A DNA stretch of 64,000 nt from Spirochaetota bacterium (lineage in GTDB: Bacteria > Spirochaetota > UBA4802 > JAFGDQ01), in NCBI GenBank assembly GCA_034190085.1, contig JAXHTS010000055.1, positions 10,117 to 74,116 of the forward strand, in the 5' to 3' direction. Both the position numbers and the translations under genes were made by a program. The notes under the pieces are model-generated. The model was given only the letters and a program-made list of their open reading frames with translations. It searched no databases and was not told where the DNA came from. Below, one piece after another: positions 28,522-47,394 of the stretch (position 1 is its first letter; every line of letters starts with the position of its first letter).

Positions 28522-30627
28522 TCAGAATGTACGCCTACCAGTCACATAGTTGCTGCCATTTACCACACCGCTGGATGGATCGATCAGCCAGCTATCATCC
28601 CCGCCATGGAAATGACACTTGCTACATGGGATATTAGTATTCCCTGTGTCTGTGTTATGACAATTTGAATTATTACATGGTGAAGTATCATATGGAGCAT
28701 CATCAAGGCCGCCATTGCTGTGATGGATACTCCAGAGTGATTGTTGGTGACACTTTTGGCACAGTGGCTGCAAGTCCTTAGGAGATCCTATCGTAATAGG
28801 GCCAACCACCGCCCCATTAACTTCACCTCTGATCAACATATCGCTGGATGATCCATGTGGTTCGTGGCAATCGGTACAGGAAAGAACAAGTCCTGAAGCT
28901 GTCCAGGGGCGGCTTTGATACGGTTCAAGTAAGTCAGCAGCCATCGAGTTAGTGGCAGGATTTATACCGTGCTTATCTCCACCCGACTCGCCTCCGGAGG
29001 TTGCCCAATCAATGGGTGTGTTTAAAAGATTATACGGGGGCACACTCATATCAGTCACATGACAATCCTGACAGAGTGTCGCATAGTCTGTCAGGTTTGA
29101 GCCGTCTGTTGTGCCAGAGCCATCCGGTTCATAATCCCCTCCACCGAAAAGATAAGGAGCCTGATAGTAGTCCGTATAACCGCTCATTCTCTCACCCGCA
29201 TCGTCACCCCACAATATCTCACCAACAACCGAACTGCCATGATTGCTTGGCAATGTCATGGGCCAGCCTCTGACACCGTCAGCGTGCGGATCCCTTTGCG
29301 CTGCGTGTGGATTGTGACATGCGTCACAGGGATTAGAATCGGCCGTGAATCCCCATTTTCCTGTAATAAAGGTGAGTATATCGTTAAGATTGTGCGATGA
29401 AGTATTCGAAAAGGCCTCCTTTACGTCATCTACAGTATCATCCGTCCAGCCTCCCGCTCGATAGCTATAGCTGTACTGCTTTACCATACCCGCTTGAACC
29501 GGGCTATCTCCTGTATCCCTATGACAATGAAAGCAGAAATTTTCAGTCTGGCTGCTCCCGTTCATAGGCGCAAATAGCATGAATTCATTTGCAGGATCAG
29601 CGGCAAGGTCGTGACAATGAAGACAATCCCCTCTATCATAGCCTGTACTCGATCTATTTATTCCATAATCATCGGTGTTTCCATGAGCGGAAGTAGTATA
29701 TCCGGCAATATCATTATGACAATCTGAACAGTTAAAGGCGCTGATATCACTATGACAGGAGAAACAGGATACAAGTGTATTGCTCCCTGTAAAATCCTCG
29801 CCATGGCATCCGGCACAATCATTAGGCAGAGTATGTGATGCTCCATGCTGCCATCCACCTCCAGCCTCCTCATGATGGCAAATGCCGCAATCTCTATCCT
29901 GATCACCCTTGCCGTTCAAATCCTCGCCGTGACACTCTTTGCAGTTATTGGGATCTCCAGCATAAGCATCACCATGCGAACCTGTCCATCCAGCATGATG
30001 ACAATCCGCGCATGATTCAATTGATCCACCATGACACCCTTTGCAGGATTCTGGATTTTCGTTAAATGCCTCATTATGAGGACCATTCCAATCATGATGA
30101 CACTCTGTACATGAGATGACTGCAGAATTGTCATTTATCTCACTATTGTGACAACCATTGCATGTGTTAAGACTTGAAATCGACTCACTTCCATGCTCCT
30201 CCATCCAATTATCGCTTCCTGCACCGTGATGACATGAAAAACAAGCTGCCTCTACAAGACCACCCTCAAGATCCTGTCCATGACATCCCATGCAAGTGCT
30301 TGGATTTTCAATAAACCCGCTTCCATGTTGTGGATTTTCAGGCGCCCCCCAATCGTGATGACATGATACACAGGAAACACCTGATTGTCCTCCATTCAAA
30401 TCATCGCCGTGACAAGCCATACAATTTTCTGAATTCAACACAAACATATCGTCGTGTTGAGGATTATCGCTCATCCACTCAATCTCTGAATGATAATGAT
30501 CTTCTATCAATCCATCTGGCAGAGATTCTGTACACCCGATGAATATAGTTATGCAAAATACCAAGGAAAGGAAGGCTTTAGTAATAGTTGAATGAATCAT
30601 TTCATTTTTTTCACATTTAATTATGTT
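28522..30627 (-). CDS. Multihaem c-type cytochrome lipoprotein (about 20 CxxCH sites)
   Basis: 20 CxxCH motifs counted, plus one CxxxxCH. The probable start is an internal Met (MIHSTITKAFLSLVFCITIFIGC) with the lipobox FIGC; the ORF track extends to 30699. The N-terminal half is built from repeated CxxCHG...CxxCHH dihaem units. Confidence 0.85.
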   Translation of the reverse strand, partial: NIIKCEKNEMIHSTITKAFLSLVFCITIFIGCTESLPDGLIEDHYHSEIEWMSDNPQHDDMFVLNSENCMACHGDDLNGGQSGVSCVSCHHDWGAPENPQHGSGFIENPSTCMGCHGQDLEGGLVEAACFSCHHGAGSDNWMEEHGSESISSLNTCNGCHNSEINDNSAVISCTECHHDWNGPHNEAFNENPESCKGCHGGSIESCADCHHAGWTGSHGDAYAGDPNNCKECHGEDLNGKGDQDRDCGICHHEEAGGGWQHGASHTLPNDCAGCHGEDFTGSNTLVSCFSCHSDISAFNCSDCHNDIAGYTTSAHGNTDDYGINRSSTGYDRGDCLHCHDLAADPANEFMLFAPMNGSSQTENFCFHCHRDTGDSPVQAGMVKQYSYSYRAGGWTDDTVDDVKEAFSNTSSHNLNDILTFITGKWGFTADSNPCDACHNPHAAQRDPHADGVRGWPMTLPSNHGSSVVGEILWGDDAGERMSGYTDYYQAPYLFGGGDYEPDGSGTTDGSNLTDYATLCQDCHVTDMSVPPYNLLNTPIDWATSGGESGGDKHGINPATNSMAADLLEPYQSRPWTASGLVLSCTDCHEPHGSSSDMLIRGEVNGAVVGPITIGSPKDLQPLCQKCHQQSLWSIHHSNGGLDDAPYDTSPCNNSNCHNTDTGNTNIPCSKCHFHGGDDSWLIDPSSGVVNGSNYVTGRRTF

Positions 30628-30934
30628 GATTCTTCTCATGATTACCCTTCCTATACTAATGGAATTGAAATTCCTCCTGATCAATATCTGGCATGGCAAT
30701 ATTAAAGCACCATGTTAAAATAAGCATAAAAATGGTGGAAGTCAAATATAGAAGTTGCTTTATGGACAAGAAAAGGTAATTCGAATAGTATTATGAAGTT
30801 TAATGGTATTTTGAGCAATATTTTTTAATTCTAAAGGGAATAACTATCATCAGATGCTTCGATTTGCCTTACCGCTTTGGATTAGGGATGAACGATACTA
30901 TGCTAATATTTGATATAGAAAGGTAAAGTGATCA

Positions 30935-32398
30935 TTATAAAATATCATCATGGCAATCAATACACTCGAAATCATCAGCATCAGGATGACAAGTGGCACA
31001 TTCAATTAGTGTATTACCTCCATCCAGGTTTTCACCGTGGCATGTTCTACAAGTATCCGGAGATATATGAAACCCTCCATGCTGCCATCCACCCCCAGGC
31101 TCCTCATGATGACAACCGATTACATCACAAGATTTGTTGACAAGCCCTCCATCAAGATCCTGTCCATGACAACCCTTGCAGATTCTTGACTCCTGAGGGT
31201 ATTTAACACCATGAGTTGTCCCATCCCAGTCGTTATGATGGTGACAAAATGTACATGAGACTAATGTGTCGCCTCCATTCAGGTCATTGCCGTGACACTC
31301 CTTACAATTGTCAGGATTATCCGCAAAAGCCTCCCCATGAGTGCCTTCCCAACCGCTATGATGACAGGGAGCACAAGATTCATTCACCGAGCCTCCCTTT
31401 AGATCCTGTCCATGACAGCCCTGGCAGATACCAGAGTCCTGTAAATATTTAACGCCATGAGTTGTCCCATCCCAGTCGTTATGATGATGACAAATAGTAC
31501 AAGAGACTTGCGCTAAACCTCCATTCAGACCACTGCCATGACATGCCATGCAGACCTCATGCTTCTGTATATATTCAACACCATGCTGTGGGTCTTCAGG
31601 ATCACCCCAGACATGATGACAATATAAACACGAATGTTCTGAATCGCCAGGCCTTAGCCCAAAATCTTCCCCATGACAATCCTTGCAACTGTCAGGATTC
31701 TCTGTAAAAGCCTTACCATGCTCCGTTGTATCATTACTCCAGTCTGAGTGATGACAGGACAAGCAGGAAAATTTTACTGGCCCTCCAATAATATCACTAC
31801 CGTGACAGCCATCACATACATCTCCTTCTGCTGAATAATCATCTCCATGCTCCTCTAACCAATTGCTATTCCCTTCACCATGATGACAGGAGAGACAGGG
31901 TAGCTTAATGATCCCCCCCTTCAGGTCTTGCCCATGACATCCAAAACAAACCATCGATTTATCTATAAACTCGTCTCCATGCTGGGGATCGCTAGGCATT
32001 CCCCATGGGTGATGACAGTCTATGCATGACACCCCTGATTGACCACCATCAAAATCCTCCCCATGACAGGATATGCAATTGTAGGGATTTTCATTGAACT
32101 TTTCACCATGCACAGAATCTTCACCTCCCCATTCCATTGAAGTATGGTAACGACTTCCATCTAATCCATCCGGAAGAGATTCAGTCTGACACCCGATAAG
32201 GATGTAAGCAGATATTATAAAAATTGCAGTATAAATTGATGCTCTGCTAAAGAAGCAATAGATAGATAATAAAAAATATTTTTTAAGGTTATTGTTACTG
32301 CATCGAAATTTCAATAGATTACACAGGATTAATTTATTATTAATTTGCACTAAATTAATCCATGATGGAAGGGTTATTCTATCTCTCATTTCTCTCAC
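30935..32398 (-). CDS. Multihaem c-type cytochrome lipoprotein (about 18-19 haem sites), tandem dihaem repeats
   Basis: 18 CxxCH motifs plus one CxxxxCH (CDVIGCHH), arranged as about nine CxxCHG / CxxCHH pairs. A lipoprotein-like signal (YILIGC) is present. The true start codon is uncertain and may be a TTG or GTG inside the annotated N-terminus. Confidence 0.8.
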   Translation of the reverse strand: MREMRDRITLPSWINLVQINNKLILCNLLKFRCSNNNLKKYFLLSIYCFFSRASIYTAIFIISAYILIGCQTESLPDGLDGSRYHTSMEWGGEDSVHGEKFNENPYNCISCHGEDFDGGQSGVSCIDCHHPWGMPSDPQHGDEFIDKSMVCFGCHGQDLKGGIIKLPCLSCHHGEGNSNWLEEHGDDYSAEGDVCDGCHGSDIIGGPVKFSCLSCHHSDWSNDTTEHGKAFTENPDSCKDCHGEDFGLRPGDSEHSCLYCHHVWGDPEDPQHGVEYIQKHEVCMACHGSGLNGGLAQVSCTICHHHNDWDGTTHGVKYLQDSGICQGCHGQDLKGGSVNESCAPCHHSGWEGTHGEAFADNPDNCKECHGNDLNGGDTLVSCTFCHHHNDWDGTTHGVKYPQESRICKGCHGQDLDGGLVNKSCDVIGCHHEEPGGGWQHGGFHISPDTCRTCHGENLDGGNTLIECATCHPDADDFECIDCHDDIL

Positions 32399-35019: not shown

Positions 35020-35781
35020 TTAGAATTCATCATTATACTCAATCTTAATGATCCTGTTAGCGCGGTCCTGCTTTTGCAGCAATATAGCAAACTCAATTCC
35101 AAGGTGATTGAGATATGTATATCTTAAACCAATATTCAATAACCATTCATCAGGCCTTGAGAAATCATAGTATATTCTCTCGCCCTCTGATTTGAAAATA
35201 ATAGATTCCCCCAGTGGAATGTCAATCGAAATATAATATGATGAGTTTTCAGGAATATAATCGGGTTGTGTAGGCACCCTCATCCCAAAATGAATATGCT
35301 GTTCATCAAATAGCAGGTAAATGGGTTTTGTTATTACAAAGTATGGGCCATATATCATTCTATTCAACTCGTTCTGGTAGTTAGTAGTCTTCCCTTCCCT
35401 TCCAATATAAAAGGAATCGTAACCTATTGCAAAAGAAACAGGAAAGGGTTCCCACCCATCTGATATTTTCAGTTTAGCAATCACTCCTGGAACATTCGGC
35501 TCAGCATTATCCTTGCCTATGGCGTTTTGTATATCCAGAGAAACCCCAAAGAAGATATTATCATGAATGCCAATAAATGTCTTTAATTCAACCCCGCCAT
35601 TATCATACCCAAGAAAGGATACCTGATAGGTTCCCCTGTCAATTGTATAGGCAGTGGGTGTATCAATGACTCTAGTGTTTCTTATATATGATGCATCAAG
35701 GGAAATACTGGAACAAATGAATATAATGATTGATAATAAATATAAAATAGGTTTCTTCATATTCATTGGTCTTGATTTCAT
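35020..35781 (-). CDS. Hypothetical secreted protein, probable outer-membrane beta-barrel
   Basis: Signal peptide, alternating hydrophobic beta-strand pattern, and a C-terminal aromatic residue (...EYNDEF). Confidence 0.45.
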   Translation of the reverse strand: MKSRPMNMKKPILYLLSIIIFICSSISLDASYIRNTRVIDTPTAYTIDRGTYQVSFLGYDNGGVELKTFIGIHDNIFFGVSLDIQNAIGKDNAEPNVPGVIAKLKISDGWEPFPVSFAIGYDSFYIGREGKTTNYQNELNRMIYGPYFVITKPIYLLFDEQHIHFGMRVPTQPDYIPENSSYYISIDIPLGESIIFKSEGERIYYDFSRPDEWLLNIGLRYTYLNHLGIEFAILLQKQDRANRIIKIEYNDEF

Positions 35782-37453
35782 GTATACCGAACCATCTCTG
35801 ATATTGTATTGGAAAGAAGAATAGATCCCTCTTCCCTCAACATTGGCTGAGAGAAGATGATCTTTTCACAAATCAAACAAAAGATATTAAAACTTGCCTT
35901 CTCGGAGATTGATGTGCAAGGCTTATATATATTATCGGATTTTTTTTCATCTGAAATAAAAAAATCTCAAGATTAGATGATTAAATCTTATAAAATATAT
36001 AATCATCAGTATTGACGGTGAGAATCACATTATTGATGGAAAAATTTCCAATTTAACTGAAAAGCTACATCTATATGTCAAATTTACTGATAGCAAAATG
36101 GTAAAAATCATACAAATGAAAAGGTAGTGGCATGTGTAATCTTCTGAGAGAGTTTATACCTAGCGGAAAGGAAGTTGGACAACGAAGGGTCTGAATAATC
36201 ACTAAACAATGGTTTGTGACTGCTGAAAAAGTAGACAATAAATACAGTTATCCACACTCTCATGCCTGCGTTATGAGGTTCCTGTATTCGCAGTGGAGAC
36301 ACCACTGTCCCCCCTGGGTATGTAGGAGTCTTTATTAAATAGAATCATTATGCGATTTAAGCATTCTCAAAACCTGCCCCTGTACATACAGGTGAATGAC
36401 TTCTATGAATGATAAAAATTAACCCATCTCAATCCCTAACTTGATGAGCAGTTAGGATGGTTTTTAAAACTTTAATAAATTTTATTTGACAAATATTGAT
36501 ATATCAAATATATAACATTCAATGTTTTATAAAAGCTAATCAATTTTGCATCTTCAACATTTTACAACTATAAATATCCAATCAACAATACCTAATTCCC
36601 ATTATCTATGATAATAATAGTGGTTATCAACAATTTCCTTTATGACTAGTCACTCTCCCCCTTCTTCTTTGAAAAGGGGTAAAGATAGGTTATTCTGATA
36701 GTTTTACAATAAGACATAATCCAGATTTCCTTGAGTTGAAAACAACATTAAACGTGCATTGCGATTCCATCCTTTCGACTCTCGGCTAAAAATAAAGGTA
36801 AGGGATTTATTCAACGCTTATTTCAGTAAAGTTTAATAAATATAGAAAGATCTGAAGTCTCAGAAGACTTTTTCCATCTCCCTTCCCAAGTGGAGCAGGC
36901 GTTATGCGCATTTGAAATGTACATCAATATGGAAATATTATTTTCTTTTCTTAACTTAGCCTAGTTGAGTGCAAACATTTATCCCCAATGATATAATGAA
37001 AAGAAATAAAGATGGACTAATTATCAGATGAATATGGATTGGATAATTAAACTCCACTTCTATAATATTTTTCTTGTATTATCGCTGATATGAGTTATAC
37101 TACAAAGGTTTCAATAATTTTGTAATAACCAAATTATCATTAAGCTCTATTTCAGCAAACATAGATAGCTCTTAATTATATTCAATTTAGCATGAATACT
37201 TTATGGATATCAAATGAGTAGTTTTAAATCTATCCATAACAGGATGACAAAACATTAAGCGGATCTAATAAATCTCCCATCAGGAATTTTAAATATAATA
37301 TAATTTCCAATGAAAAATTGGAATAACCTTTATTAAAAAGGAGGTGAAAAGATTATAGATTTTGCATGATCTAGAACCGAATAAATAAAGGTTTTCTTTA
37401 ACAAAAAGATATCAGCAAAATATATTAATAAAAAATCATTTCGGAGGTATAGG

Positions 37454-38884
37454 ATGAGAAACAAAATACTACTTGTATATTGTTTTGTATTGATCATGGC
37501 AGTTGTTCAGAACACACTTTTGGCTCAGGATATTGAAAAATAGCGCTATCACATATCTGGGTTTATGCAGACCATATATATACAAATTGATCCTGCTGCT
37601 GAAGAGAGTATGATGGAAACTATACAAACAAATTCAAACAAAAATGGTGCATTCATGCAGAGCGATCTGAATCTCTATTTTACCTTCTTTATCGATGAAG
37701 GCTGGAAGGCCTTTAGTGAAGTTGCCTTCCTTTACACACCAACAAGAGAATTAAATGTAGAGCCTGAGACAACCCAGGTCATAGACTCCACTACTGGCGA
37801 GGTAACCCTATATTCAACTGGAAATATGATCGGAACGCCCTATGATACATCTTACATGACCCCAACATTCTCACTTTCTAAATATGGCGCAATTGAAATT
37901 GAACGCGCATATATTGAATGGAACAAACTGTCCTATGCTAATCTACGCTTTGGTCGCTATTTCACCCCCTTGGGGATATGGCAGCGCTATCATGGAGCGC
38001 CAGTCGTAACAAGCGTGCGCCTCCCTATAATGGTAGTTTCAGCATTGGGAGGAACCGGGATGCCAACGTCCAAAACAGGGGTAGAGTTACTTGGGAAAGT
38101 TGATATTGCAGACACATTAATCGAGTATGCTGCCTATGTAGAGAATGGCATATCCGAGGCTGATGCGCTATATGATGACAATGCAAATAAGGCTGTTGGT
38201 GGGTTCCTAAATTTTAAGCTTCCAACAATCGCTGGCAGAATAGATGTTGAGTTTGGCGGCTCAGGTTATTATGGCAAGCGAACACATATCTCGCAAAAAA
38301 CCTATTTGTTGGCTATAGGGACATCAGACCTATTGGATTCAACTAATCTAAATAATATTGTTGTAACAATGGATTATGATCCTTCACAAGATGAATACGC
38401 CGCTGAGCAATGGGACACAATGGCACTGGCTCATCTTAAACTCTCCATAGCATCACTACCCCTTGATGGCACCTTCATCCTACAGGCTGAAGGTGTGCAT
38501 CAAGGGAGTGACAGGGATGATGATAGTAGAATTGTAAATTCAGTTCACGGCTATAGTGTACAGGAAGATGATATGAAGTATTACTCCTATTACGGACAGG
38601 TGGAATATCAATTCTATGGTAAACTTACTCCCTATTTTAGATATGAAATTACTAATCGAGATACTGATATAGCACAGGATAAGATATTAACCAAAAATTC
38701 AACAATGTATGTAACAGGTCTAAATTATAAGCCAAGGCCAAAGGTTGCCATAAAGGCGGAAACTATTATTGCTGATCTGGATAGCGACGTTGGCAACATG
38801 GCTAATCGTTGGGATCCAACAAAAGATGAAAAGATGAATAATGATATGATTATCTATATGGGATCAATATCAGTAGCTTTTTAA
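37454..38884 (+). pseudogene. Outer-membrane beta-barrel protein (OprO/P-like porin family?), array copy 1, with an in-frame TAG inside the signal peptide
   Basis: A good RBS (GGAGGT) plus the ATG at 37454 encodes the signal peptide MRNKILLVYCFVLIMAVVQNTLLAQDIEK. An in-frame TAG follows at 37541-37543, and the same frame then continues as RYHISGFMQTIYIQ..., which aligns with copies 2-4. The intact ORF resumes only at the Met at 37565 and lacks a signal peptide. Confidence 0.6.
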
Positions 38885-38904
38885 TTCTAAAGGGAGGTTT
38901 AAAC

Positions 38905-39339
38905 ATGAAGAAGAAAAGTATAAAGAGTCACTTAATATTATCTCTTATCCTTTTGGCAGGGACATTCACCATAGGACTGCATGAGGCTCCTGCTCAGGAT
39001 GACGTTGTTGTGATAGCGAATAATAGCAAGGGCTCGCTTAATGCTAGTCAGATAAAACGCATCTTTAATGGTGATGTTACCAACTGGCCTGATGGAGGTG
39101 CTGTCAAGGTTTTGCTGAACAGCAATCCCGGCATAACAGAGCAATTCTGCTCAAAGTACTTAAACACAACGCCTTCCAAACTGGATTCGTCATGGGTAAA
39201 AAAGAGCATACGGGACGGCACACCTACCCCGCGCAAGGTTGCCAGCAATGTAATAGTTACCATGGTGAGCAACTCGCCAAAGTTTATAGGATTTGTCAAA
39301 AGGTCAGAGGCGGGCTCCTCTGTAAAAATTATTGATTGA
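38905..39339 (+). CDS. Small secreted protein resembling a partial PstS/PBP-like domain (array partner S1)
   Basis: Signal peptide, then QIKRIFNGDVTNWPDGG, which resembles the (L/I)xxIFxGxITNW hinge motif of PstS-family periplasmic binding proteins. At 144 aa it is about half the size of a full PBP. It lies 20 nt downstream of the large gene. Confidence 0.6.
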   Translation: MKKKSIKSHLILSLILLAGTFTIGLHEAPAQDDVVVIANNSKGSLNASQIKRIFNGDVTNWPDGGAVKVLLNSNPGITEQFCSKYLNTTPSKLDSSWVKKSIRDGTPTPRKVASNVIVTMVSNSPKFIGFVKRSEAGSSVKIID

Positions 39340-39445
39340 TGTATTGTTGGAATATGGAGCTAGGAAATCACATTCTTCATGTGAATATCCAATGCACTAT
39401 AAATAATAGCTTAAAGCAATAAACTACAAAATTTGGAGGTAATTT

Positions 39446-40885
39446 ATGATGATGAAGCATTTACTATTATTGGTCAGCATAGTACAGCTTATCATTAGCA
39501 CCCACAGTATGCTTTTTGCTCAATTGATGATGGAAGAGGAGAAACGATTTCATATATCCGGATTTATGCAGACCATATACATACAATTAGATGTAGAGTC
39601 AGAAAATAGCATGTTAGAATCAGTCCAAACAAATGCAAACGAAAATGGAGCATTTGTGCAGAGTGATCTAAATCTTTATTTTAGCTTCTTCATCGATGAG
39701 GGCTGGAAGGCCTTCAGTGAGGTTGCCTTCTGTTACAAGCCAACTGGAGAACTTGATATAGAGCCAGAGACAACCCAGGTAATAGACTCCACTACTGGCC
39801 AGGTAACCATTTATTCTACAGGAAATATGATTGGGACGCCTTATGACACTTCATACATGACCCCAACATTCTCACTTTCTAAATATGGCGCAATTGAAAT
39901 TGAACGCGCATATATTGAATGGAACAAACTGTCCTATGCTAATCTACGCTTTGGTCGATATTTTACCCCCTTTGGGATATGGCAGCGCGATCATGGAGCG
40001 CCAATCGTAACAAGCGCGCGGCTCCCTTTAATGGTAGTCCCGACATTAGGAACAACCGGAATGCCTAAAGCGCAGACAGGTGTGGAGCTACTTGGATCAA
40101 TTGATGTTGCAGACACATTAATAGAGTATGCTGCCTATGTGGGGAATGGGATATCAGAAGCTGAAGCGCTATATGATGACAATTCAAATAAGGCAGTTGG
40201 TGGATTTCTAAACTTTAAACTTCCAACAATCGCTGACAGAATAGATATTGAGTTTGGCGGTTCAGGATATTATGGCAAGCGAACATATATCTCTCAGAAA
40301 ACCTATTTATTGGATATAGGAACATCAGACCTATTGGATTCAACTAATCCAAATAATATTGTTGTAACCATGGATTATGATCCCTCACAAGATGAATACA
40401 CAGCTAAGCAATGGGACACAATGGCACTGGCCCATCTTAAACTCTCCATAGCATCACTACCCCTTGATGGCACATTCATCCTACAGGCTGAAGGTGTGCA
40501 TCAATGGAGTGACAAGGACGATGATATTAGAATTGTAGACTCAGTTCACGGCTATAATATACAGGAAGATGATATGAAGTACTACTCCTATTACGGACAG
40601 GTGGAATATCAATTCTATGGTAAACTTACTCCCTATTTTAGGTATGAGACTACTAATAAAGATACTGATATAGCACAGGAGAAGATAATGTCTGAACAGA
40701 CATACATGTATGTAGTAGGTATCAATTACAAGCCAAGACCAAAGATTGCGATTAAGGCAGAAGCTAATATCGTAGATATGGAAACCGACACTGCCAACAT
40801 GGCCAATTATCTGGATCCTACAAAAGATGAAAAAATAAATAATGATATGACTGTATATGTTGCGTCAATATCAGTAGCTTTTTAA
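39446..40885 (+). CDS. Outer-membrane beta-barrel protein (OprO/P-like?), array copy 2
   Basis: Signal peptide (MMMKHLLLLVSIVQLII...AQ). Paralogous to copies 1, 3 and 4 and ends in ISVAF. RBS TTGGAGG upstream. Confidence 0.7.
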   Translation: MMMKHLLLLVSIVQLIISTHSMLFAQLMMEEEKRFHISGFMQTIYIQLDVESENSMLESVQTNANENGAFVQSDLNLYFSFFIDEGWKAFSEVAFCYKPTGELDIEPETTQVIDSTTGQVTIYSTGNMIGTPYDTSYMTPTFSLSKYGAIEIERAYIEWNKLSYANLRFGRYFTPFGIWQRDHGAPIVTSARLPLMVVPTLGTTGMPKAQTGVELLGSIDVADTLIEYAAYVGNGISEAEALYDDNSNKAVGGFLNFKLPTIADRIDIEFGGSGYYGKRTYISQKTYLLDIGTSDLLDSTNPNNIVVTMDYDPSQDEYTAKQWDTMALAHLKLSIASLPLDGTFILQAEGVHQWSDKDDDIRIVDSVHGYNIQEDDMKYYSYYGQVEYQFYGKLTPYFRYETTNKDTDIAQEKIMSEQTYMYVVGINYKPRPKIAIKAEANIVDMETDTANMANYLDPTKDEKINNDMTVYVASISVAF

Positions 40886-40903
40886 TGCTAAGGGAGGGTT
40901 AAC

Positions 40904-41338
40904 ATGAAAAAGAAAAGTCTATTTAATTACTTAGTTCTTACTCTAATCCTTCTTACAGGAACATTCATCATAGGAGTGCATGAGACTCCTGCACAGGATG
41001 ATGTTGTTGTGATAGTAAACAATAGCAAGGGCTCGCTTAGTGCCAGTCAGATAAAGCGCATCTTTACTGGCGATGTCACCAACTGGCCTGACGGAGGCAC
41101 TGTTAAGGTTTTGCTGAACAGCAACGCCGGCGTAACAGAACAATTTTGCTCAAAGTACCTTAACACTACGCCTTCCAAACTGGATTCGTCATGGGTAAAG
41201 AAGAGTATACGAGATGGTACTCCAACACCACGCAAGGTTGCCAGCAATGTAATAGTAACCATGGTGAGCAATTCGCCCAAGTTTATCGGATTTGTTAAGA
41301 GGTCAGAGGCAGGCTCCTCTGTGAAAATTATTGACTAA
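40904..41338 (+). CDS. Small PstS-like secreted protein (S2)
   Basis: Paralog of S1; the C-terminal 65 aa are identical. Confidence 0.6.
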   Translation: MKKKSLFNYLVLTLILLTGTFIIGVHETPAQDDVVVIVNNSKGSLSASQIKRIFTGDVTNWPDGGTVKVLLNSNAGVTEQFCSKYLNTTPSKLDSSWVKKSIRDGTPTPRKVASNVIVTMVSNSPKFIGFVKRSEAGSSVKIID

Positions 41339-41452
41339 TGTGTAGGGGGAATAAGGAGTTAGGAAATTCATGATTTATCATTTGAATATCCTATACTCTT
41401 AAATCTAAATAGCTTTAAGCAAAAAAAATTACAAATTTTGGAGGAAATTTAG

Positions 41453-42883
41453 ATGAAAAAGTATTTTCTTTTATTAGTATATGGATTGTTTCTCACCTTA
41501 GGCATTCAGGGGATGCTTTTTGCACAGTTTATGGAAGAGGAGAAACGGTTTCACATCTCCGGGTTTATGCAGACAGTCTATATGGACATCAATTTTGATT
41601 CCGATGAAAATATGATGTCTGCCTTAGCGCCACAGCTAAATGATAACGGATATTTTGTACAGAGTGATCTCAATATCTATTTTACATTCTTTGTTGATGA
41701 TGGATGGAAGGCTTTTAGCGAAATAGCATTTCGATACACACCCACTGGGAATATTACAATTGAGCCAGAGACAACCCAGGTAGTAGATGAAACTACTGGC
41801 GAGGTAACCCTGTATTCAACGGGAAACATGATAGGAACCCCCTTCGATTCATCCTATATGACGCCCACATTTTCGCTATCCAAGTATGGTTCAATAGATA
41901 TTGAACGAGCCTATATAGAGTGGAATGAATTGTCTTATGCTAATCTCCGCTTCGGACGTTTCTTTACCCCCTTTGGGATATGGCAGCGTGATCATGGCGC
42001 TCCTATTCTCACGAGTATACGACTCCCAATGCTAGTACAGCCGCCATTGCCAGGATTGGGAATGCCCAAGGCACAGACAGGCGTTGAGCTTGTTGGAACA
42101 ATGGATGCTGGCACATTGATTGAATACATGGCATATGTAGGGAATGGTATATCTAATGCTGATGCGTTATATGATAATAATAAGAATAAAGGGGTAGGAG
42201 CCTTTTTGAATATCAAGTTACCCACAATTGCTGATAAGATCGATCTTGAATTGGGAGGTTCAGGGTATTATGGCAAGACAACACATATATCCCAAAAAAC
42301 CTATTTGTTGGATATAGGCACATCTGATCTCTTGGATTCTACTAATCCCAATAACATTGTTGTTACCATGGACTACGATCCATCACAAGATAAGTATACT
42401 ACCAAACAGTGGGATACAATCGCCCTTGCACACCTGAAATTAAGCATTAGTTCGCTACCCTTTGACGGCACATTCGTCTTACAGGCTGAAGGGCTGCACC
42501 AATGGATGGACAAAGATGACGATCCTAGAATTGTAGATTTAGTTCATGGCTATGCCGTTCAGGAGGATGACGCTAAGTATTATACCTATTATGGTCAGGT
42601 TGAATACCAATTCTATGGCAAAATTGCTCCCTATTTTAGATATGAAATAATGTCTCTAGATAGTGATATAGCACAAAATGTTGTTTTACTGGAAAATTCG
42701 ACCATGTATACAATGGGGATAAGCTTTAAGCCCAAACCAAGAATAGCAATTAAGATCGAAAGTATAATAGTTGATATTGAAACTGATTTCGGCAACATGG
42801 CCAACCTATCGGATCCGACCAAGGATGTAAAAATGAACAATGACATGATATATTATTTGGCTGGAATCTCAGTTGCATTTTAA
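41453..42883 (+). CDS. Outer-membrane beta-barrel protein (OprO/P-like?), array copy 3
   Basis: Signal peptide, paralog, C-terminal ...ISVAF. RBS TTGGAGG upstream. Confidence 0.7.
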   Translation: MKKYFLLLVYGLFLTLGIQGMLFAQFMEEEKRFHISGFMQTVYMDINFDSDENMMSALAPQLNDNGYFVQSDLNIYFTFFVDDGWKAFSEIAFRYTPTGNITIEPETTQVVDETTGEVTLYSTGNMIGTPFDSSYMTPTFSLSKYGSIDIERAYIEWNELSYANLRFGRFFTPFGIWQRDHGAPILTSIRLPMLVQPPLPGLGMPKAQTGVELVGTMDAGTLIEYMAYVGNGISNADALYDNNKNKGVGAFLNIKLPTIADKIDLELGGSGYYGKTTHISQKTYLLDIGTSDLLDSTNPNNIVVTMDYDPSQDKYTTKQWDTIALAHLKLSISSLPFDGTFVLQAEGLHQWMDKDDDPRIVDLVHGYAVQEDDAKYYTYYGQVEYQFYGKIAPYFRYEIMSLDSDIAQNVVLLENSTMYTMGISFKPKPRIAIKIESIIVDIETDFGNMANLSDPTKDVKMNNDMIYYLAGISVAF

Positions 42884-42896
42884 TTAAGGAGGTAAC

Positions 42897-43331
42897 ATGA
42901 AAAATACAAATAGAATTACTCGTCTTCTCTTAATATTAGTTATGATGGCAGGAACCTTCATATTAGGATTGCATGAGGTTCCTGCTCAGGATGATGTTGT
43001 TGTGATAGCGAATAACAGCAAGGGCTCGCTTAGCGCTAGTCAGATAAAACGCATCTTTAATGGTGATGTTACCAACTGGCCTGACGGGGGCGCTGTCAAG
43101 GTTTTGCTGAACAACAACTCTGGCATAACAGAGCAATTCTGCTCAAAATATTTAAACACTACGCCTTCCAAACTGGATTCGTCATGGGTAAAAAAAAGCA
43201 TACGGGACGGTACTCCAACACCTCGCAAGGTTGCCAGCAATGTAATAGTAACCATGGTGAGCAACTCACCCAAGTTTATCGGATTCGTTAAGAGGTCAGA
43301 GGCGGGCTCCTCTGTGAAAATTATTGACTAA
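42897..43331 (+). CDS. Small PstS-like secreted protein (S3)
   Basis: Paralog of S1 and S2. Confidence 0.6.
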   Translation: MKNTNRITRLLLILVMMAGTFILGLHEVPAQDDVVVIANNSKGSLSASQIKRIFNGDVTNWPDGGAVKVLLNNNSGITEQFCSKYLNTTPSKLDSSWVKKSIRDGTPTPRKVASNVIVTMVSNSPKFIGFVKRSEAGSSVKIID

Positions 43332-43420
43332 CGGTAATGAAAACCTAAAGATTTAGGGATTTATGAATCTTCATTTAAATACCCTATGCTCTTAAAACCA
43401 TAACTTGGAGGAAATATTAT

Positions 43421-44848
43421 ATGAAAATCTTATTTGGTCTAATCGTATTGCTGCTTACTTTAAGCACTCAAAGCATGCTTTATGCTCAGTATATAGAAGA
43501 AGAAAACCGATATCACATCACTGGTTTTCTTCAGACAGTTTATATAGATTTTGATTTCGATTCAGATGATAATATGCTATCTTCCATATCGCCATCACAA
43601 AATGATAATGGCAATTTCGTACAGAGTGATCTCAATCTATATTTTACATTTTTCGTTGATAAGGGTTGGAAGGCCTTTAGCGAAATTACCTTTCGTTACT
43701 CACCGACTGGAGAAATTGAAAAGGAACCAGAGACTACCCAGGTAGTAGATGATTCTACTGGCGAGGTGACCCTGTATTCAACGGGCAATATGATAGGAAC
43801 CCCCTTTGATTCATCCTATATGACACCCACCTTTTCTCTCTCCAAGTACGGTTCAATAGACATTGAACGCGCCTACATTGAGTGGAATGAATTATCCTAT
43901 GCCAATCTGCGTTTCGGACGATATTTTACTCCCTTTGGAATATGGCAGCGTGATCATGGCGCCCCCATTCTCACCAGCATAAGACTTCCCATGCTGGTGC
44001 AGGCACCAATTATAGGAATTGGGATGCCAAAGGCGCAGACAGGTGTTGAGCTTGTTGGGTCAATGGATGTAGCAGGCACATTATTTGAATACATGGCCTA
44101 TGTCGGGAACGGTATATCAAATGCTGATGCCTTATACGATGATAATAAGAATAAGGCGGCAGGTGGTTTTTTAAATATTAAGCTCCCCACAATCGCAGAT
44201 AAAATTGATCTTGAATTTGGGGGTTCAGGGTATTATGGCAAAACTACAATAATATCCCAAAAAACTTATCTGTTGGATATCGGTACATCTGATCTCTTGG
44301 ATTCAACTAATCCTAATAACATTGTTGTAACCATGGACTATGACCCATCAAAGGATGAATACACTAAAAAACAATGGGATACAATCGCCCTTGCGCACCT
44401 GAAACTCAGCATAGGTTCACTGCCCTTTGACGGCACCTTCATTTTACAAACTGAAGGGCTGTACCAATGGATGGACAAAGACAACGATAATAGAATTGTT
44501 AATTCAGTTCATGGCTATCCTGTACAGGAAGATGATGCCAAGTATTACACCTATTATGGTCAGGTTGAATACCAATTTTATAACAAAATAGCCCCATATT
44601 TTAGATATGAATATATGGCCATGGATACTGACATATCGCAAACTTCAATAATAATTGAATCATCGAATATATATATTATTGGGATGAACTTTAAGCCCAA
44701 GCCAAGAATAGCAATAAAGGTTGAATGTGATATAGTAGATATGGAATCTGATGTCGGCAACATGGCCAATCTATTAGACCCGACCAAGGATGTTAAAAGG
44801 AACAATGACATGGTCATATATATGGCCGGGATATCAGTTGCATTTTAA
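43421..44848 (+). CDS. Outer-membrane beta-barrel protein (OprO/P-like?), array copy 4 (no small partner)
   Basis: Signal peptide, paralog, C-terminal ...ISVAF. Followed by a palindrome rather than an S gene. Confidence 0.7.
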   Translation: MKILFGLIVLLLTLSTQSMLYAQYIEEENRYHITGFLQTVYIDFDFDSDDNMLSSISPSQNDNGNFVQSDLNLYFTFFVDKGWKAFSEITFRYSPTGEIEKEPETTQVVDDSTGEVTLYSTGNMIGTPFDSSYMTPTFSLSKYGSIDIERAYIEWNELSYANLRFGRYFTPFGIWQRDHGAPILTSIRLPMLVQAPIIGIGMPKAQTGVELVGSMDVAGTLFEYMAYVGNGISNADALYDDNKNKAAGGFLNIKLPTIADKIDLEFGGSGYYGKTTIISQKTYLLDIGTSDLLDSTNPNNIVVTMDYDPSKDEYTKKQWDTIALAHLKLSIGSLPFDGTFILQTEGLYQWMDKDNDNRIVNSVHGYPVQEDDAKYYTYYGQVEYQFYNKIAPYFRYEYMAMDTDISQTSIIIESSNIYIIGMNFKPKPRIAIKVECDIVDMESDVGNMANLLDPTKDVKRNNDMVIYMAGISVAF

Positions 44849-44865
44849 TAAAGACAACCAGATAA

Positions 44866-44899
44866 GCAATAGTGATTAATTCGAATTAATCACTATTGC
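44866..44899. other. Perfect palindrome (about 16-bp arms, TTCGAA centre) downstream of the array; terminator-like
   Basis: GCAATAGTGATTAATTCGAATTAATCACTATTGC. Confidence 0.5.
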
Positions 44900-45663
44900 T
44901 TAGTTCTAATCCTACTGGCAGGAAAATTATTTATTGGATTGCAGGATAACGAGGTTAAGAATTCTTGTTGATTTTAGTTTTATTTTTATTGGCTTAACTG
45001 TATACTTTATCAAAATAGAATTTAACTTAATCAAGTTAACTGAGTTTTCAGCAATATTTAATAATACTGATAAATCACGCTTATGCATCAAGGTGATTAT
45101 AATATTATTGATATTGACAATAGTCAATTATCTATAATAAAATTAAATTTTATTAGAAGAAGTGTTACTGTGGATACTATACTATATTTTTATAATTTCA
45201 TTACCCCCTAAATATACTAAATCAATAATAAATGTTACATTGTGAACATTAAACCTTCCTCAAGCTTTATTGGAGAATTCACAGATACAACAAAGTAATT
45301 CTAAAACATTCGCATTTATTTTATCTATAAATTTTATGATAAAATTTATATAAAAGTCCTATTGAAATGATCAGATAGCATCTCCAGTATCCGTGGTTGT
45401 TTCATGAATATATATTAAATTACTTGTGATTCTTTATTTTAAATAATAATGAATCACATACTATAAATTTGTATAATTATAACATCTCAAAAATTACCAT
45501 AATCCCCACCAGCTACTGGGTTTATGGTAATTTCCCTGCAATTTATTGAGAACTTACTTGTATTTTTTTTTTTACTATAAAAATTACTTGTAACTATTTA
45601 AAATTTAGTGCATTATAAATTATACAAATTAAGCAATATAATCTATTATTTAGGTATAAAAAC

Positions 45664-47394
45664 ATGAGCATCTCGTTAAATATGTTTAAAAAAATGAGAA
45701 TTAAGGCGAAACTCTTTTTTGCTTTTATTCTCATTCTTCTGCCAGCCACTATTATATTGAGTGTTGGCGCATACGTCTCACACATTAACTCGAGACATGC
45801 ACTATTAGTCAAAGAGACAAATTTACCAAATGCCCTATTATTTATTGATATTGAAAAAGATGTAATCATGATTCAAGATTGGCTCACGAATGTAGCCTTA
45901 ACAAGGGGAGCAAAGGGCTATGATCAAGGTTTTGATGAAGCCCAAAAGCATTATAACAGTGCGATCAATAATGTTGACAAATTGATCGAAAAGTTCCAAA
46001 ACACACCTGATGAGTTGAAAGAGATTGAGCAGATGAAGGCGAATCTTAAAAATTATTATGATGTTGGCAATGAAGTGGCCCATGCCTATCTTGAAGGCGG
46101 CTCAGAAGCGGGCAATGCGATGCTGGACGTCTTTGTTGTTGTTCGCGATAAGTTAAATAACATACTGAGCAGGTACCGAGATAATCAAACTCAAGAATTG
46201 ATAAACACAATTGGGAATATCCAAAAGGATCTGGATAACACAAAAATTACTAATATAATATTTGTATTTGCATTCTTTCTCTTTGGCTTTATAATCGTTC
46301 TTTTTATGGCAAACAAGATAGTTCGCCCAATAATTTCGGTTAATACAAAGCTTAATGATATATCAAACATTGATGGCGACTTAACCGCTAAACTCTTAAT
46401 TGAATCAAAGGATGAGTTAGGAGAGATGGCTAAATCCTTCAACACCTTTGTAGATAAGATCAGAAACGTTATCAAAGAGGTAAAGGATTTCTCAAAAAAT
46501 CTGGCCACCTCCTCTACAGGTATTGCGAAAGTTACAGATACCTTTTCAATGAATATCCAAAGCCAGGCAGCCTCCTCGGAAGAAATTCATTCAACAATTG
46601 AACAAATTTCCGCAAGCATGGATTTAATCTCTAACAGGGCTGGAGATCAATTCCAGCAGATGAATTCATTAATAGAACAGATGCAGGGCCTCTCTAAAAT
46701 TATAACTAATATGAGTAGGCGGATTGGAGAGGCGATGTCCTTAGTTGAAGATATTTCATCATCTGCAAAATCAGGGAGTAGTTATCTTGACTATATGAAT
46801 GAAAGCATGAATAAGATTAGCAACAGTTCCTCGAAAATAACAGACATCGTTAACATCATCAATGATATTTCTGATAAAATAAATCTATTGTCGCTAAATG
46901 CTGCCATTGAAGCTGCGAGAGCAGGTGATGCTGGAAGAGGTTTTGCGGTTGTTGCTGATGAAATATCAAAGTTGGCTGATCAAACGGCCGTTAGCATCAA
47001 AGACATAGACCAATTAGTAACAACCAATGATAAAGAGATAACTAAGGGAATGAAAAACGTTACAGATACAGTAAATATAATTAGCAAAATAATTAATGGA
47101 GTCAAATCCATTAATGAGATGATGAATAATATCTCTACAGATATGACAAACCAATTGGAAAGGAATGATTCTGTTAATAATGAAGCTATCAACGTAAAAA
47201 ATAAATCTGAAGAGATCAGATACGCAACTGAAGAACTAAAAATAGCTGTTGACGAAATCTCCAAGTCCATATCAACCATTACTGAATCAACACAGATTAC
47301 TTCTACTGGAGCGGAGAACATCGCGACAAATACTAAACAAGCATCTGAAATGACAGAAAATCTTAATAAATTAGTGGACTTCTTTAAAACATAG
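45664..47394 (+). CDS. Methyl-accepting chemotaxis protein
   Basis: N-terminal TM, a periplasmic/four-helix region, a second TM, a HAMP domain, and the MCP signalling domain ([26 protein letters not shown]). The start is probably the Met at about 45685. Confidence 0.85.

What the first reader, a model, noticed from the sequence alone, without database searches (positions are those of the whole stretch)
37450..44850. Four-fold tandem array of porin-like genes, each coupled to a half-size PstS-like binding protein
Four paralogous ~475-aa secreted proteins end in ...ISVAF; a C-terminal Phe is the usual outer-membrane beta-barrel signature. Their size and architecture are compatible with phosphate-selective OprO/P-type porins. 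Each of the first three is followed at 13-20 nt by a 144-aa secreted protein. That small protein carries an (L/I)KRIFxGDVTNW motif, which resembles the hinge motif of PstS-type binding proteins, but it is only about half the length of a PBP. Each unit has its own upstream region of about 100 nt with a conserved TTGGAGG RBS. The fourth large gene lacks a partner and is capped by a perfect palindrome. Conservation is asymmetric: the small genes are about 90% identical at nucleotide level and their C-terminal 65 aa are identical, whereas the large genes are mosaics of identical and divergent blocks. Copies 1 and 2 group together, as do copies 3 and 4. This looks like ongoing gene conversion or concerted evolution of a surface-exposed channel family with a dedicated periplasmic mini-binding partner. 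I do not know this pairing as a described system.
Basis: partly seen in the sequence, partly recalled or inferred. Interest (0 to 1): 0.75.

Follow-up and report, generated by a model that had tools for sequence, protein, structure and literature searches.

The report
Porin plus half-size binding-protein sensory cassette
A spirochaete genome carries a tandem array of outer-membrane porin genes, each paired with a secreted one-lobe relative of the phosphate-binding protein PstS; in many bacteria this pair sits next to membrane receptors, so it is probably an undescribed way of feeding signals to chemotaxis and kinase pathways rather than a nutrient-uptake system.

Summary

- L1 has an in-frame TAG at codon 30, so it is a likely pseudogene.
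- The S genes are 85-86% identical at nucleotide level, not about 90%.
- The identical S C-termini carry 14-21 synonymous differences, which indicates purifying selection rather than recent gene conversion. Only one significant conversion-like tract was found (L1/L2).

New findings:
- An S gene follows an L gene, or the last L of a run (L-L-S in L022), in all eleven other Spirochaete-type cassettes recovered. S-like genes also follow unrelated small barrels in other phyla.
- No ABC transporter gene is adjacent to any pair.
- The neighbours are transmembrane signalling proteins. The periplasmic 4HB sensor domain of the window's MCP (45664-47394) recurs at 28-36% identity on an MCP, two histidine kinases and PP2C phosphatases beside L-S pairs elsewhere.

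Best reading (about 0.45): a porin, a periplasmic co-receptor and a 4HB receptor form a sensory module with an unknown ligand. I found no description of this pairing.

The parts
37454..38884 (+). L1, porin paralogue with an in-frame TAG at 37541-37543 (codon 30); likely pseudogene. The rest of the frame is intact from 37544.
   Evidence: L-family HMM E 1.5e-177
38905..39339 (+). S1, 144-aa Sec-exported single-lobe PstS-fold protein
39355..39399 (+). Conserved stem-loop in the S-to-L spacer. Equivalent elements lie in the spacers 41339-41452 and 43332-43420. Coordinates are approximate.
   Evidence: 14 pairs, 4 with compensatory changes among only 3 sequences; weak
39446..40885 (+). L2, 479-aa, 16-strand OprP-like outer-membrane barrel (the copy that was modelled)
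40904..41338 (+). S2 (the copy that was modelled)
41453..42883 (+). L3, 476 aa
42897..43331 (+). S3
43421..44848 (+). L4, 475 aa, terminal copy without an S partner
   Evidence: (no S remnant downstream)
44863..44902 (.). Perfect 20+20 nt palindrome. As RNA it forms a -25.8 kcal/mol hairpin (z -6.1) with no T-run; probable end of the transcript or a stabiliser.
45664..47394 (+). Methyl-accepting chemotaxis protein (4HB_MCP_1 sensor, HAMP, MCPsignal). Its periplasmic sensor domain belongs to the subfamily that recurs beside L-S pairs in other genomes. It is the proposed receptor partner.

Best explanation
The array encodes repeated two-gene cassettes.

Shown:
- L is a Sec-exported, 16-strand outer-membrane porin with the OprP fold. 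Its constriction loop L3 (RFGRYFTPFGIWQRDHGAP) is highly conserved.
- S is a Sec-exported periplasmic protein of 113 mature residues. It consists of a single alpha/beta lobe, equal to lobe II of a PstS-type binding protein.
- L and S are co-transcribed: the gaps are 13-20 nt and each gene has its own GGAGG.

Inferred:
- The cassette is the input arm of a trans-envelope sensing pathway. L admits a still unknown solute across the outer membrane.
- S is basic (pI 9.7). It acts either as a homodimer or by docking onto a receptor, and serves as the periplasmic co-receptor.
- The signal then passes to an inner-membrane protein with a four-helix-bundle (4HB) periplasmic sensor. Here that protein is the MCP at 45664-47394, so the output would be chemotaxis. 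In other genomes the same sensor subfamily is fused to histidine kinases or PP2C phosphatases.
- The three S copies stay nearly identical because they must fit one common partner. The L copies diverge mainly in predicted surface loops L1, L7 and L8.
- The ligand is probably not orthophosphate bound in the PstS manner.
For: Folds:

Pairing:
- An S gene follows an L gene, or the last L of a run (L-L-S in L022), in all eleven other cassettes found: L001, L003 (two), L006 (two), L007, L008, L020, L022, L023, and on a further contig of this MAG, by locus tags only, SVZ03_05205-05225 (L,S,?,L,S).
- S-like genes also follow unrelated barrels of 377-387 aa in L012 and L021, and follow a cut-off upstream ORF that ends in a barrel-type ...DFVF in L016/L018.

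Signalling neighbours:
- By BLASTP, the window MCP sensor domain is about 31% identical to MCP_L003 (whole-protein alignment, E 9e-72), 33% to HK_L003a (E 8e-22), and 35-36% to the SpoIIE phosphatases of L007 and L008 (E 1e-30 to 1e-35). Within the sensor-domain alignment A5 the identities are 29-35%. A second L003 kinase matches the A5 sensor profile at E 5.5e-67.
- That is three output types on one sensor subfamily (Pfam 4HB_MCP_1, 31.9 bits).
- L022, from the same organism, has L-L-S followed 25 nt later by a 4HB MCP.
- L005 has MCP then S-like; L020 has L-S-L then a HAMP-SpoIIE protein; L021 has a HAMP-GAF protein, then a barrel, then S-like; L015 has a kinase divergent from an S-S fusion.
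- No ABC transporter gene is adjacent to any pair.

Selection and other clues:
- S is under strong purifying selection: dN 0.01-0.03 against dS 0.44-0.62.
- Tandem S-S fusions exist (P0058, P0061), which hints at dimerisation.

Precedent:
- SBPs stimulate 4HB and HBM chemoreceptors and kinases, for example PstS with CtpL (PMC8050422).
- Single-domain SBP genes have been noted near MCP genes (PMC10805632).
Against: - No physical interaction was tested, and no complex could be modelled.
- Adjacency is not universal. L001 and L006 show no sensor in the DNA available, and L023 has a PilZ protein instead.
- Spirochaetes are rich in signalling genes, so some adjacency is expected by chance, and some loci are related (L007/L008).
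- In the window the MCP is separated from L4 by a strong hairpin and 815 nt, and it has its own promoter-like site. It is therefore not in the same operon.
- A single lobe cannot close on a ligand the way a normal binding protein does, and isolated lobes of a ribose-binding protein do not bind ligand (PMC10601554).
- The charges of the sensor domains are not consistently complementary to S (pI 5.0, 8.6, 4.9).
Confidence: 0.45

Rival explanations
1. Uptake only. L is a substrate-specific porin. S is a periplasmic binder or sink that captures the solute at the porin exit and hands it to an unlinked inner-membrane transporter. The neighbouring sensors are coincidental or merely co-regulated.
For: - The OprP-like fold and the conserved L3 constriction suggest a specific channel.
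- Tight L-S coupling (13-20 nt gaps) with L:S of 1 or more fits a channel accessory.
- L is acidic and S is basic (pI 4.4 against 9.7), which is compatible with direct docking.
- A Na/Pi cotransporter-PhoU gene lies at 54500-56197.
Against: - No transporter gene is adjacent to any of the pairs examined.
- The same sensor subfamily occurs on three different output domains beside L-S pairs, which is hard to ascribe to chance.
- S has one lobe and lacks most PstS ligand residues.
Confidence: 0.25
2. Envelope or surface-variation family. L is an abundant structural porin that diversifies under phage, predator or host pressure, which explains the arrays and pseudogenes. S is a periplasmic chaperone, plug or peptidoglycan tether for the barrel.
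For: - The MAG has at least 9 L and 7 S genes in four loci.
- Nonsense-disrupted copies occur in two organisms.
- L divergence concentrates in predicted external loops L1, L7 and L8, while the barrel, L2, L3 and L5 are conserved.
- S-like proteins are generally basic, with a median pI of 9.4.
Against: - This reading does not explain the recurrent 4HB-sensor neighbours.
- It does not explain why a PstS lobe would be recruited as a tether.
- The family is rare: 5 loci among 185,579 species representatives. That is not what one expects of a major structural porin.
Confidence: 0.15
3. A classical phosphate-scavenging pair: an OprO/OprP porin plus a PstS protein of the Pho regulon, merely miniaturised.
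For: - The best fold and HMM matches are to OprP and to PstS.
- In P. aeruginosa, PstS also signals to the chemoreceptor CtpL.
Against: - In the HMM alignment the PstS lobe-II ligands R135, S139, G140 and T141 align with N72, G76, V/I77 and T78 of S. Only T141 is kept (the ligand numbering is from memory of E. coli PstS).
- Lobe I is missing entirely.
- Mature L has 65 D/E against 33 K/R, and its predicted lumen-facing strand residues include 17 acidic against 12 basic. That is unlike an arginine-ladder anion channel.
- There is no pstCAB or phoU next to the array.
Confidence: 0.08
4. An assembly artefact: fewer copies inflated by mis-assembly of strain variants.
For: - The window comes from a metagenome-assembled genome.
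- The L1 stop codon could be a consensus error.
Against: - The copies differ by 14-29% at nucleotide level, with distinct spacers and signal peptides.
- L3 and L4 proteins are also present in independent Logan assemblies.
- Similar multi-copy arrays occur in other genomes: L003, L006, L020, L022.
Confidence: 0.02

Closest known systems
OprP/OprO phosphate porin, PstS and the chemoreceptor CtpL of Pseudomonas aeruginosa
   Same: The protein families match at all three tiers: an OprP-fold porin, a PstS-fold periplasmic protein, and a helical-bundle chemoreceptor stimulated by a binding protein.
   Different: S is one lobe only and lacks most phosphate ligands. L is acidic and scores only at borderline in Porin_O_P. 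The genes are physically linked and multiplied here, whereas the Pseudomonas genes belong to the pst/Pho regulon. The sensor here is 4HB rather than HBM.
Chitoporin ChiP, chitooligosaccharide-binding protein CBP and sensor kinase ChiS of Vibrio
   Different: CBP is a full two-lobe SBP that also feeds an ABC transporter. The families and the ligand are different.
Single-domain SBP RmSBP of Rhodothermus marinus (PDB 5Z6V)
   Same: It is a secreted protein made of a single SBP lobe, its function is unknown, and its genes are reported near MCP genes (PMC10805632).
   Different: It resembles a different SBP family, the amino-acid-binding SBPs. It does not appear among the PDB sequence hits or the listed structure hits of S. 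No porin partner has been reported for it.
Engineered halves of ribose-binding protein (Hoecker laboratory)
   Same: Isolated PBP lobes fold on their own and can reassemble into a binding-competent dimer (PMC10601554). The natural S-S fusions fit the same logic.
   Different: Those are laboratory constructs from a class I PBP. S is a natural, widespread lobe of the class II type.

Membership tests
Porin_O_P (OprO/OprP, PF07396) | Pfam HMM score at or above the gathering threshold (20.9 bits) | tested here: inconclusive
   L2 scores 24.8 and L3 21.2 (above threshold); L4 scores 16.9 (below). Only the C-terminal part matches (roughly the last quarter to third, about 340-460 of ~477 residues). 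One homologue instead matches BBP2 (PF07642) at 29.1 bits. NCBIfam gives no porin family hit.
Porin_O_P (OprO/OprP, PF07396) | 16-strand beta-barrel with the OprP fold and a C-terminal aromatic beta-signal | tested here: met
Porin_O_P (OprO/OprP, PF07396) | Arginine ladder and lysine cluster lining the pore (anion/phosphate selectivity) | tested here: inconclusive
   I made a rough assignment of lumen-facing strand residues from the AF2 secondary structure. It gives 12 K/R against 17 D/E. Mature L2 has pI 4.4. No residue-level superposition on OprP was possible.
PstS-type phosphate-binding protein (PF12849 / TIGR02136) | Two-lobe architecture of about 250-340 aa | tested here: not met
   Mature S is 113 aa and forms one lobe. 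It aligns only to residues 101-216 of 1twy. Only about 110 residues of 236-372-residue targets are aligned.
PstS-type phosphate-binding protein (PF12849 / TIGR02136) | HMM score at threshold | tested here: not met
   S1 scores 23.2 bits on PF12849 against a cutoff of 27, and 20.3 bits on TIGR02136 against a cutoff of 206.6.
PstS-type phosphate-binding protein (PF12849 / TIGR02136) | Phosphate-ligand residues of lobe II (Arg135, Ser139, Gly140, Thr141 in E. coli numbering) | tested here: not met
   In the HMM alignment to phosphate-binding proteins, sReDgSGT aligns with LNSNAGVT. This gives N72, G76, V/I77 and T78, so only Thr is kept. The ligand numbering is from memory.
PstS-type phosphate-binding protein (PF12849 / TIGR02136) | Encoded with pstCAB ABC transporter genes | tested here: not met
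   There are no ABC transporter genes beside the array or beside any related pair.
Single-domain SBPs of the RmSBP type (5Z6V) | Sequence or structure similarity to RmSBP | tested here: not met
SBP-dependent transmembrane receptors (Tar-MBP, CtpL-PstS, ChiS-CBP) | The periplasmic binding protein contacts the receptor's periplasmic sensor domain | not testable with these tools
   Only genomic linkage is shown: the same 4HB sensor subfamily occurs beside L-S pairs on MCP, histidine kinase and PP2C proteins.
4HB_MCP_1 sensor module (PF12729), for the neighbouring MCP | Pfam HMM at or above the gathering threshold, and a position between two transmembrane segments | tested here: met
   The score is 31.9 bits against a cutoff of 27, over residues 10-168. 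Hydrophobic segments flank the domain.

The most novel reading that the evidence does not exclude
The L-S pair is the visible tip of a widespread, undescribed trans-envelope sensing module. In it a natural single-lobe PstS-fold protein works as a homodimer or docks on a 4HB sensor. It relays either a porin-admitted solute or the state of the porin to chemoreceptors, histidine kinases and PP2C phosphatases. About 2,200 clusters at 50% identity match the S profile at E up to 0.001, and nearly all of the best 150 are 130-165 aa. This would also supply living examples of the single-lobe and tandem-lobe stages postulated for the origin of periplasmic binding proteins.
Probability: 0.3. Interest if true: 0.8.

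Novelty: new variant of a known kind. Interest (0 to 1): 0.62.

Why it matters
- Binding-protein-dependent signalling is known only for full two-lobe SBPs borrowed from transporters. A dedicated one-lobe protein, genetically tied to its own porin and to interchangeable receptor outputs, would be a new input architecture for chemotaxis, two-component and PP2C pathways.
- It would give a function to a large family now annotated only as 'hypothetical' or 'phosphate ABC transporter substrate-binding protein'.
- It offers natural material (single lobes and S-S fusions) for the long-standing hypothesis that PBPs arose by duplication of a single lobe.
- It warns against annotating these genes as phosphate uptake components.

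Tried and rejected
- **TAG recoding** as an explanation for the L1 stop. Rejected: TAG terminates 10 of 47 ORFs in the window. A second L gene with an in-frame TAG in another organism (L006) is read as a parallel pseudogene.
- **RNA elements.** There are no tRNA genes and no Rfam hits, even at E up to 1, in 35700-45700.
- **A remnant of a fourth S gene** after L4, or of L/S genes in the 1.67-kb ORF-free region upstream. tblastn found nothing.
- **Collection scans with S patterns.** The genome scan found nothing and the metagenome scan found one locus that was already known. The L scan of 185,579 species found 5 loci.
- **afdb50 fold library.** Unavailable.
- **Profile comparison of L with the 377-aa barrel of L012.** E 0.09, aligning only the strand-5/L3 motif; inconclusive.
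- **Charge complementarity between S and the sensor domains.** Inconsistent: pI 5.0, 8.6 and 4.9.
- **PDB profile search with the sensor domain.** No meaningful hit.
- **Literature searches** for the pairing (PstS-like + porin; PBP_like_2 + porin; phosphate-selective porin + MCP + substrate-binding). Nothing relevant was found.
- **Context of P0012.** No record.


Full report
**Source and anatomy.** The window belongs to a metagenome-assembled Spirochaetota genome, locus tags SVZ03_11165-11195. ORF listing and direct reading confirm seven same-strand genes:
- L1 37454-38884, S1 38905-39339
- L2 39446-40885, S2 40904-41338
- L3 41453-42883, S3 42897-43331
- L4 43421-44848

The L-to-S gaps are 20, 18 and 13 nt, each with a GGAGG. 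The S-to-L spacers are 106, 114 and 89 nt, are alignable, and end in TTGGAGG. All L copies end in ISVAF. A perfect 20+20 nt palindrome lies at 44863-44902. As RNA it folds to -25.8 kcal/mol (z -6.1) and has no T-run.

**Corrections to the observation.**
- L1 reads MRNKILLVYCFVLIMAVVQNTLLAQDIEK*RYHISGF, with a TAG at 37541-37543 where the paralogues have Lys or Asn. TAG ends 10 of 47 ORFs in the window, so it is not recoded. L1 as assembled is a pseudogene or a consensus error. NCBI's 439-aa call lacks the signal peptide.
- The S genes are 85-86% identical at nucleotide level.
- The identical 65 C-terminal residues of S differ at 14-21 synonymous sites. For mature S, dS is 0.44-0.62 and dN is 0.012-0.027. 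This is purifying selection.
- A permutation test on runs of shared polymorphic sites finds one significant tract: L1 37855-37954 with L2 39856-39955, 29 sites, none of 2000 shuffles reaching it. No other tract is significant.
- L dS is 0.46 (L1/L2), 0.79 (L3/L4) and 2 or more between the two groups. All S pairs lie at 0.44-0.62 and do not follow the L tree. The S genes were therefore homogenised or replaced at some earlier time, but conversion is not 'ongoing' at a detectable level.

**What L is.**
- Pfam gives Porin_O_P at 24.8 bits (L2), 21.2 (L3) and 16.9 (L4), against a cutoff of 20.9. Only the C-terminal part matches, roughly the last quarter to third.
- An AF2 model built on 20 homologues (pLDDT 73) has 16 long strands, turns of 2-7 residues and a 35-residue L3 loop.
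- The most conserved part of the family is strand 4 to L3: ERAYIEW...RFGRYFTPFGIWQRDHGAP.
- Mature L2 is acidic (pI 4.4; 65 D/E against 33 K/R). A rough assignment of lumen-facing strand residues gives 17 acidic against 12 basic. This does not look like OprP's arginine ladder, but no superposition was possible.
- Between the paralogues, amino-acid change concentrates in the signal peptide and the predicted loops L1, L7 and L8. L2, L3 (first half) and L5 are nearly invariant.

**What S is.**
- S has a typical signal peptide (…APA|QDD). The AF2 model (pLDDT 86) has a single alpha/beta lobe.
- A profile search of PDB sequences aligns S 30-143 to residues 101-216 of V. cholerae 1twy, which is lobe II.
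- Pfam and NCBIfam scores are below threshold.
- In the HMM alignment the phosphate-binding loop sReDgSGT of PstS corresponds to LNSNAGVT in S. Of the lobe-II ligands Arg135, Ser139, Gly140 and Thr141 (numbering from memory of E. coli PstS), only Thr is kept.
- Mature S is basic, pI 9.7.

**How widespread.**
- The close S family is tiny, and L occurs in only 5 loci among 185,579 species representatives.
- An exhaustive profile search finds 2,215 cluster representatives at E up to 1e-3 and 99 at up to 1e-10. Almost all of the best 150 are 130-165 aa. They share the signature IFxG…G…F…W…P…IG(Y/F)…VK and are mostly basic, with a median pI of 9.4.
- Two of them are tandem S-S fusions (P0058 and P0061).
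- Public names are 'hypothetical' or 'phosphate ABC transporter substrate-binding protein'.

**The pairing is conserved.** HMM scans of all fetched loci show an S gene directly after an L gene, or after the last L of a run (L-L-S in L022), in:
- L001
- L003 (two pairs)
- L006 (two pairs; the second L also carries an in-frame TAG)
- L007 and L008
- L020 (L-S-L)
- L022 (L-L-S) and L023 (L-S)

L022 and L023 carry proteins with SVZ03 locus tags, so they come from the same organism. With SVZ03_05205-05225 (L,S,?,L,S), the MAG has at least 9 L and 7 S genes.

More distant S-like genes follow other secreted barrels. These are a 377-aa protein ending …RVGFTF (L012) and a 387-aa protein ending …SLTTVF (L021). 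In L016/L018 the S-like gene follows a cut-off upstream ORF that ends …SLDFVF.

**The neighbours point to signalling.**
- No ABC transporter gene is adjacent to any pair.
- The window's downstream gene is an MCP with HAMP and MCPsignal domains. Its periplasmic domain scores as 4HB_MCP_1 (31.9 bits).
- By BLASTP this MCP is about 31% identical to the MCP that precedes the first L-S pair of L003 (whole-protein alignment, E 9e-72) and 33% identical to the histidine kinase between the two L003 pairs (E 8e-22). It is 35-36% identical to the N-terminal domains of the SpoIIE/PP2C phosphatases that lie divergently upstream of L-S in L007 and L008 (E 1e-30 to 1e-35).
- Within the sensor-domain alignment A5 the identities are 29-35%.
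- A second kinase 4 kb from the second L003 pair matches the A5 sensor profile at E 5.5e-67.
- One sensor subfamily, fused to three kinds of output and each time beside L-S, is the strongest functional clue.
- Further cases are:
  - L022, L-L-S followed 25 nt later by a 4HB-HAMP MCP
  - L020, L-S-L followed by a HAMP-SpoIIE protein
  - L021, a HAMP-GAF protein, then a barrel, then S-like
  - L005 (Thalassotalea piscium), MCP then S-like, where the MCP matches the sensor profile at E 1e-6
  - L015, a CHASE3 kinase divergent from an S-S fusion
- Exceptions are L001 and L006 (no sensor in the DNA held), L023 (a PilZ protein) and L012 and L016 (no adjacent sensor).

**Interpretation.** Established knowledge is that full-size SBPs stimulate 4HB and HBM chemoreceptors and sensor kinases: MBP with Tar, PstS with CtpL, CBP with ChiS (reviewed in PMC8050422). 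Single-domain SBPs of another family have been noted near MCP genes, with unknown function (PMC10805632). Isolated PBP lobes fold and can reassemble (PMC10601554).

I therefore read L-S as the input arm of a porin, periplasmic co-receptor and 4HB-receptor pathway.
- Shown: the folds, the export signals, the gene coupling, the conservation of the pairing, the recurrence of the sensor subfamily, and the selection regime.
- Inferred: that S contacts the sensor (or dimerises, as the fusions suggest), that L supplies the ligand, and that the output here is chemotaxis.

Three near-identical S copies alongside divergent L copies and one MCP fit a shared partner for S. The ligand is unknown, and phosphate bound in the PstS manner is unlikely.

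**Rivals.** I consider an uptake-only cassette (0.25), an envelope or surface-variation family with S as chaperone or tether (0.15), a genuine miniature OprP/PstS phosphate system (0.08) and an assembly artefact (0.02). The evidence for and against each is given in the Rival explanations section.

**Novelty.** The component folds are known, and the three-tier logic has precedents. A dedicated single-lobe PstS-fold protein genetically coupled to its own porin and to interchangeable 4HB receptors did not appear in eight full-text searches. I rate it a new variant of a known kind, with interest 0.62.

Noticed in passing
window 37541-37543: In-frame TAG in L1, directly after the signal peptide. 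The rest of the 1.3-kb frame is intact, and dN/dS against L2 is 0.26 (0.14 for L3/L4). This is either a recent inactivation or a MAG consensus error.
   Followed up: partly
L006 2574-2576: A second L gene in a single-cell genome of another Spirochaetota also has an in-frame TAG (…NLNLYF*FNP…). This suggests birth-and-death turnover in these arrays.
   Followed up: partly
window 35782-37453: A 1.67-kb AT-rich stretch upstream of the array has no ORF longer than 65 aa, no Rfam hit, and no remnant of L, S or MCP genes.
   Followed up: partly
window 39355-39399, with equivalents in 41339-41452 and 43332-43420: A conserved imperfect stem-loop lies in each S-to-L spacer. It could be a partial terminator, a processing site or an operator. 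Covariation support comes from only three sequences.
   Followed up: partly
window 35020-35781 (-): A 253-aa ORF with a signal-peptide-like N-terminus ends in …IEYNDEF and has no Pfam family. It may be another small outer-membrane barrel, divergent from the array.
   Followed up: no
window 28522-30699 and 30935-32398 (-): Two large multihaem cytochrome c genes (Cytochrome_C7, c3 and paired CXXCH motifs) are unusual for a spirochaete and hint at extracellular or periplasmic electron transfer.
   Followed up: no
window 54500-56197 (+): A Na/Pi cotransporter fused to PhoU domains. It is the only phosphate-related gene in the window, about 10 kb from the array.
   Followed up: no
P0058 (L015 8001-8873) and P0061: Natural tandem fusions of two S-like lobes (290 and 258 aa). 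One lies divergent from a CHASE3-PAS histidine kinase. This is a Rosetta-stone hint that single lobes act as dimers.
   Followed up: partly
L020 3490-5046 and 5578-7128: Distant L homologues carry an N-terminal coiled-coil extension of about 100 residues, reminiscent of DcaP-type trimeric porins.
   Followed up: no
window 45114-45143: The best sigma-70-like promoter match of the region (TTGACA, 18 nt, TAAAAT) lies between the palindrome and the MCP gene. This suggests that the MCP is transcribed separately from the array.
   Followed up: no
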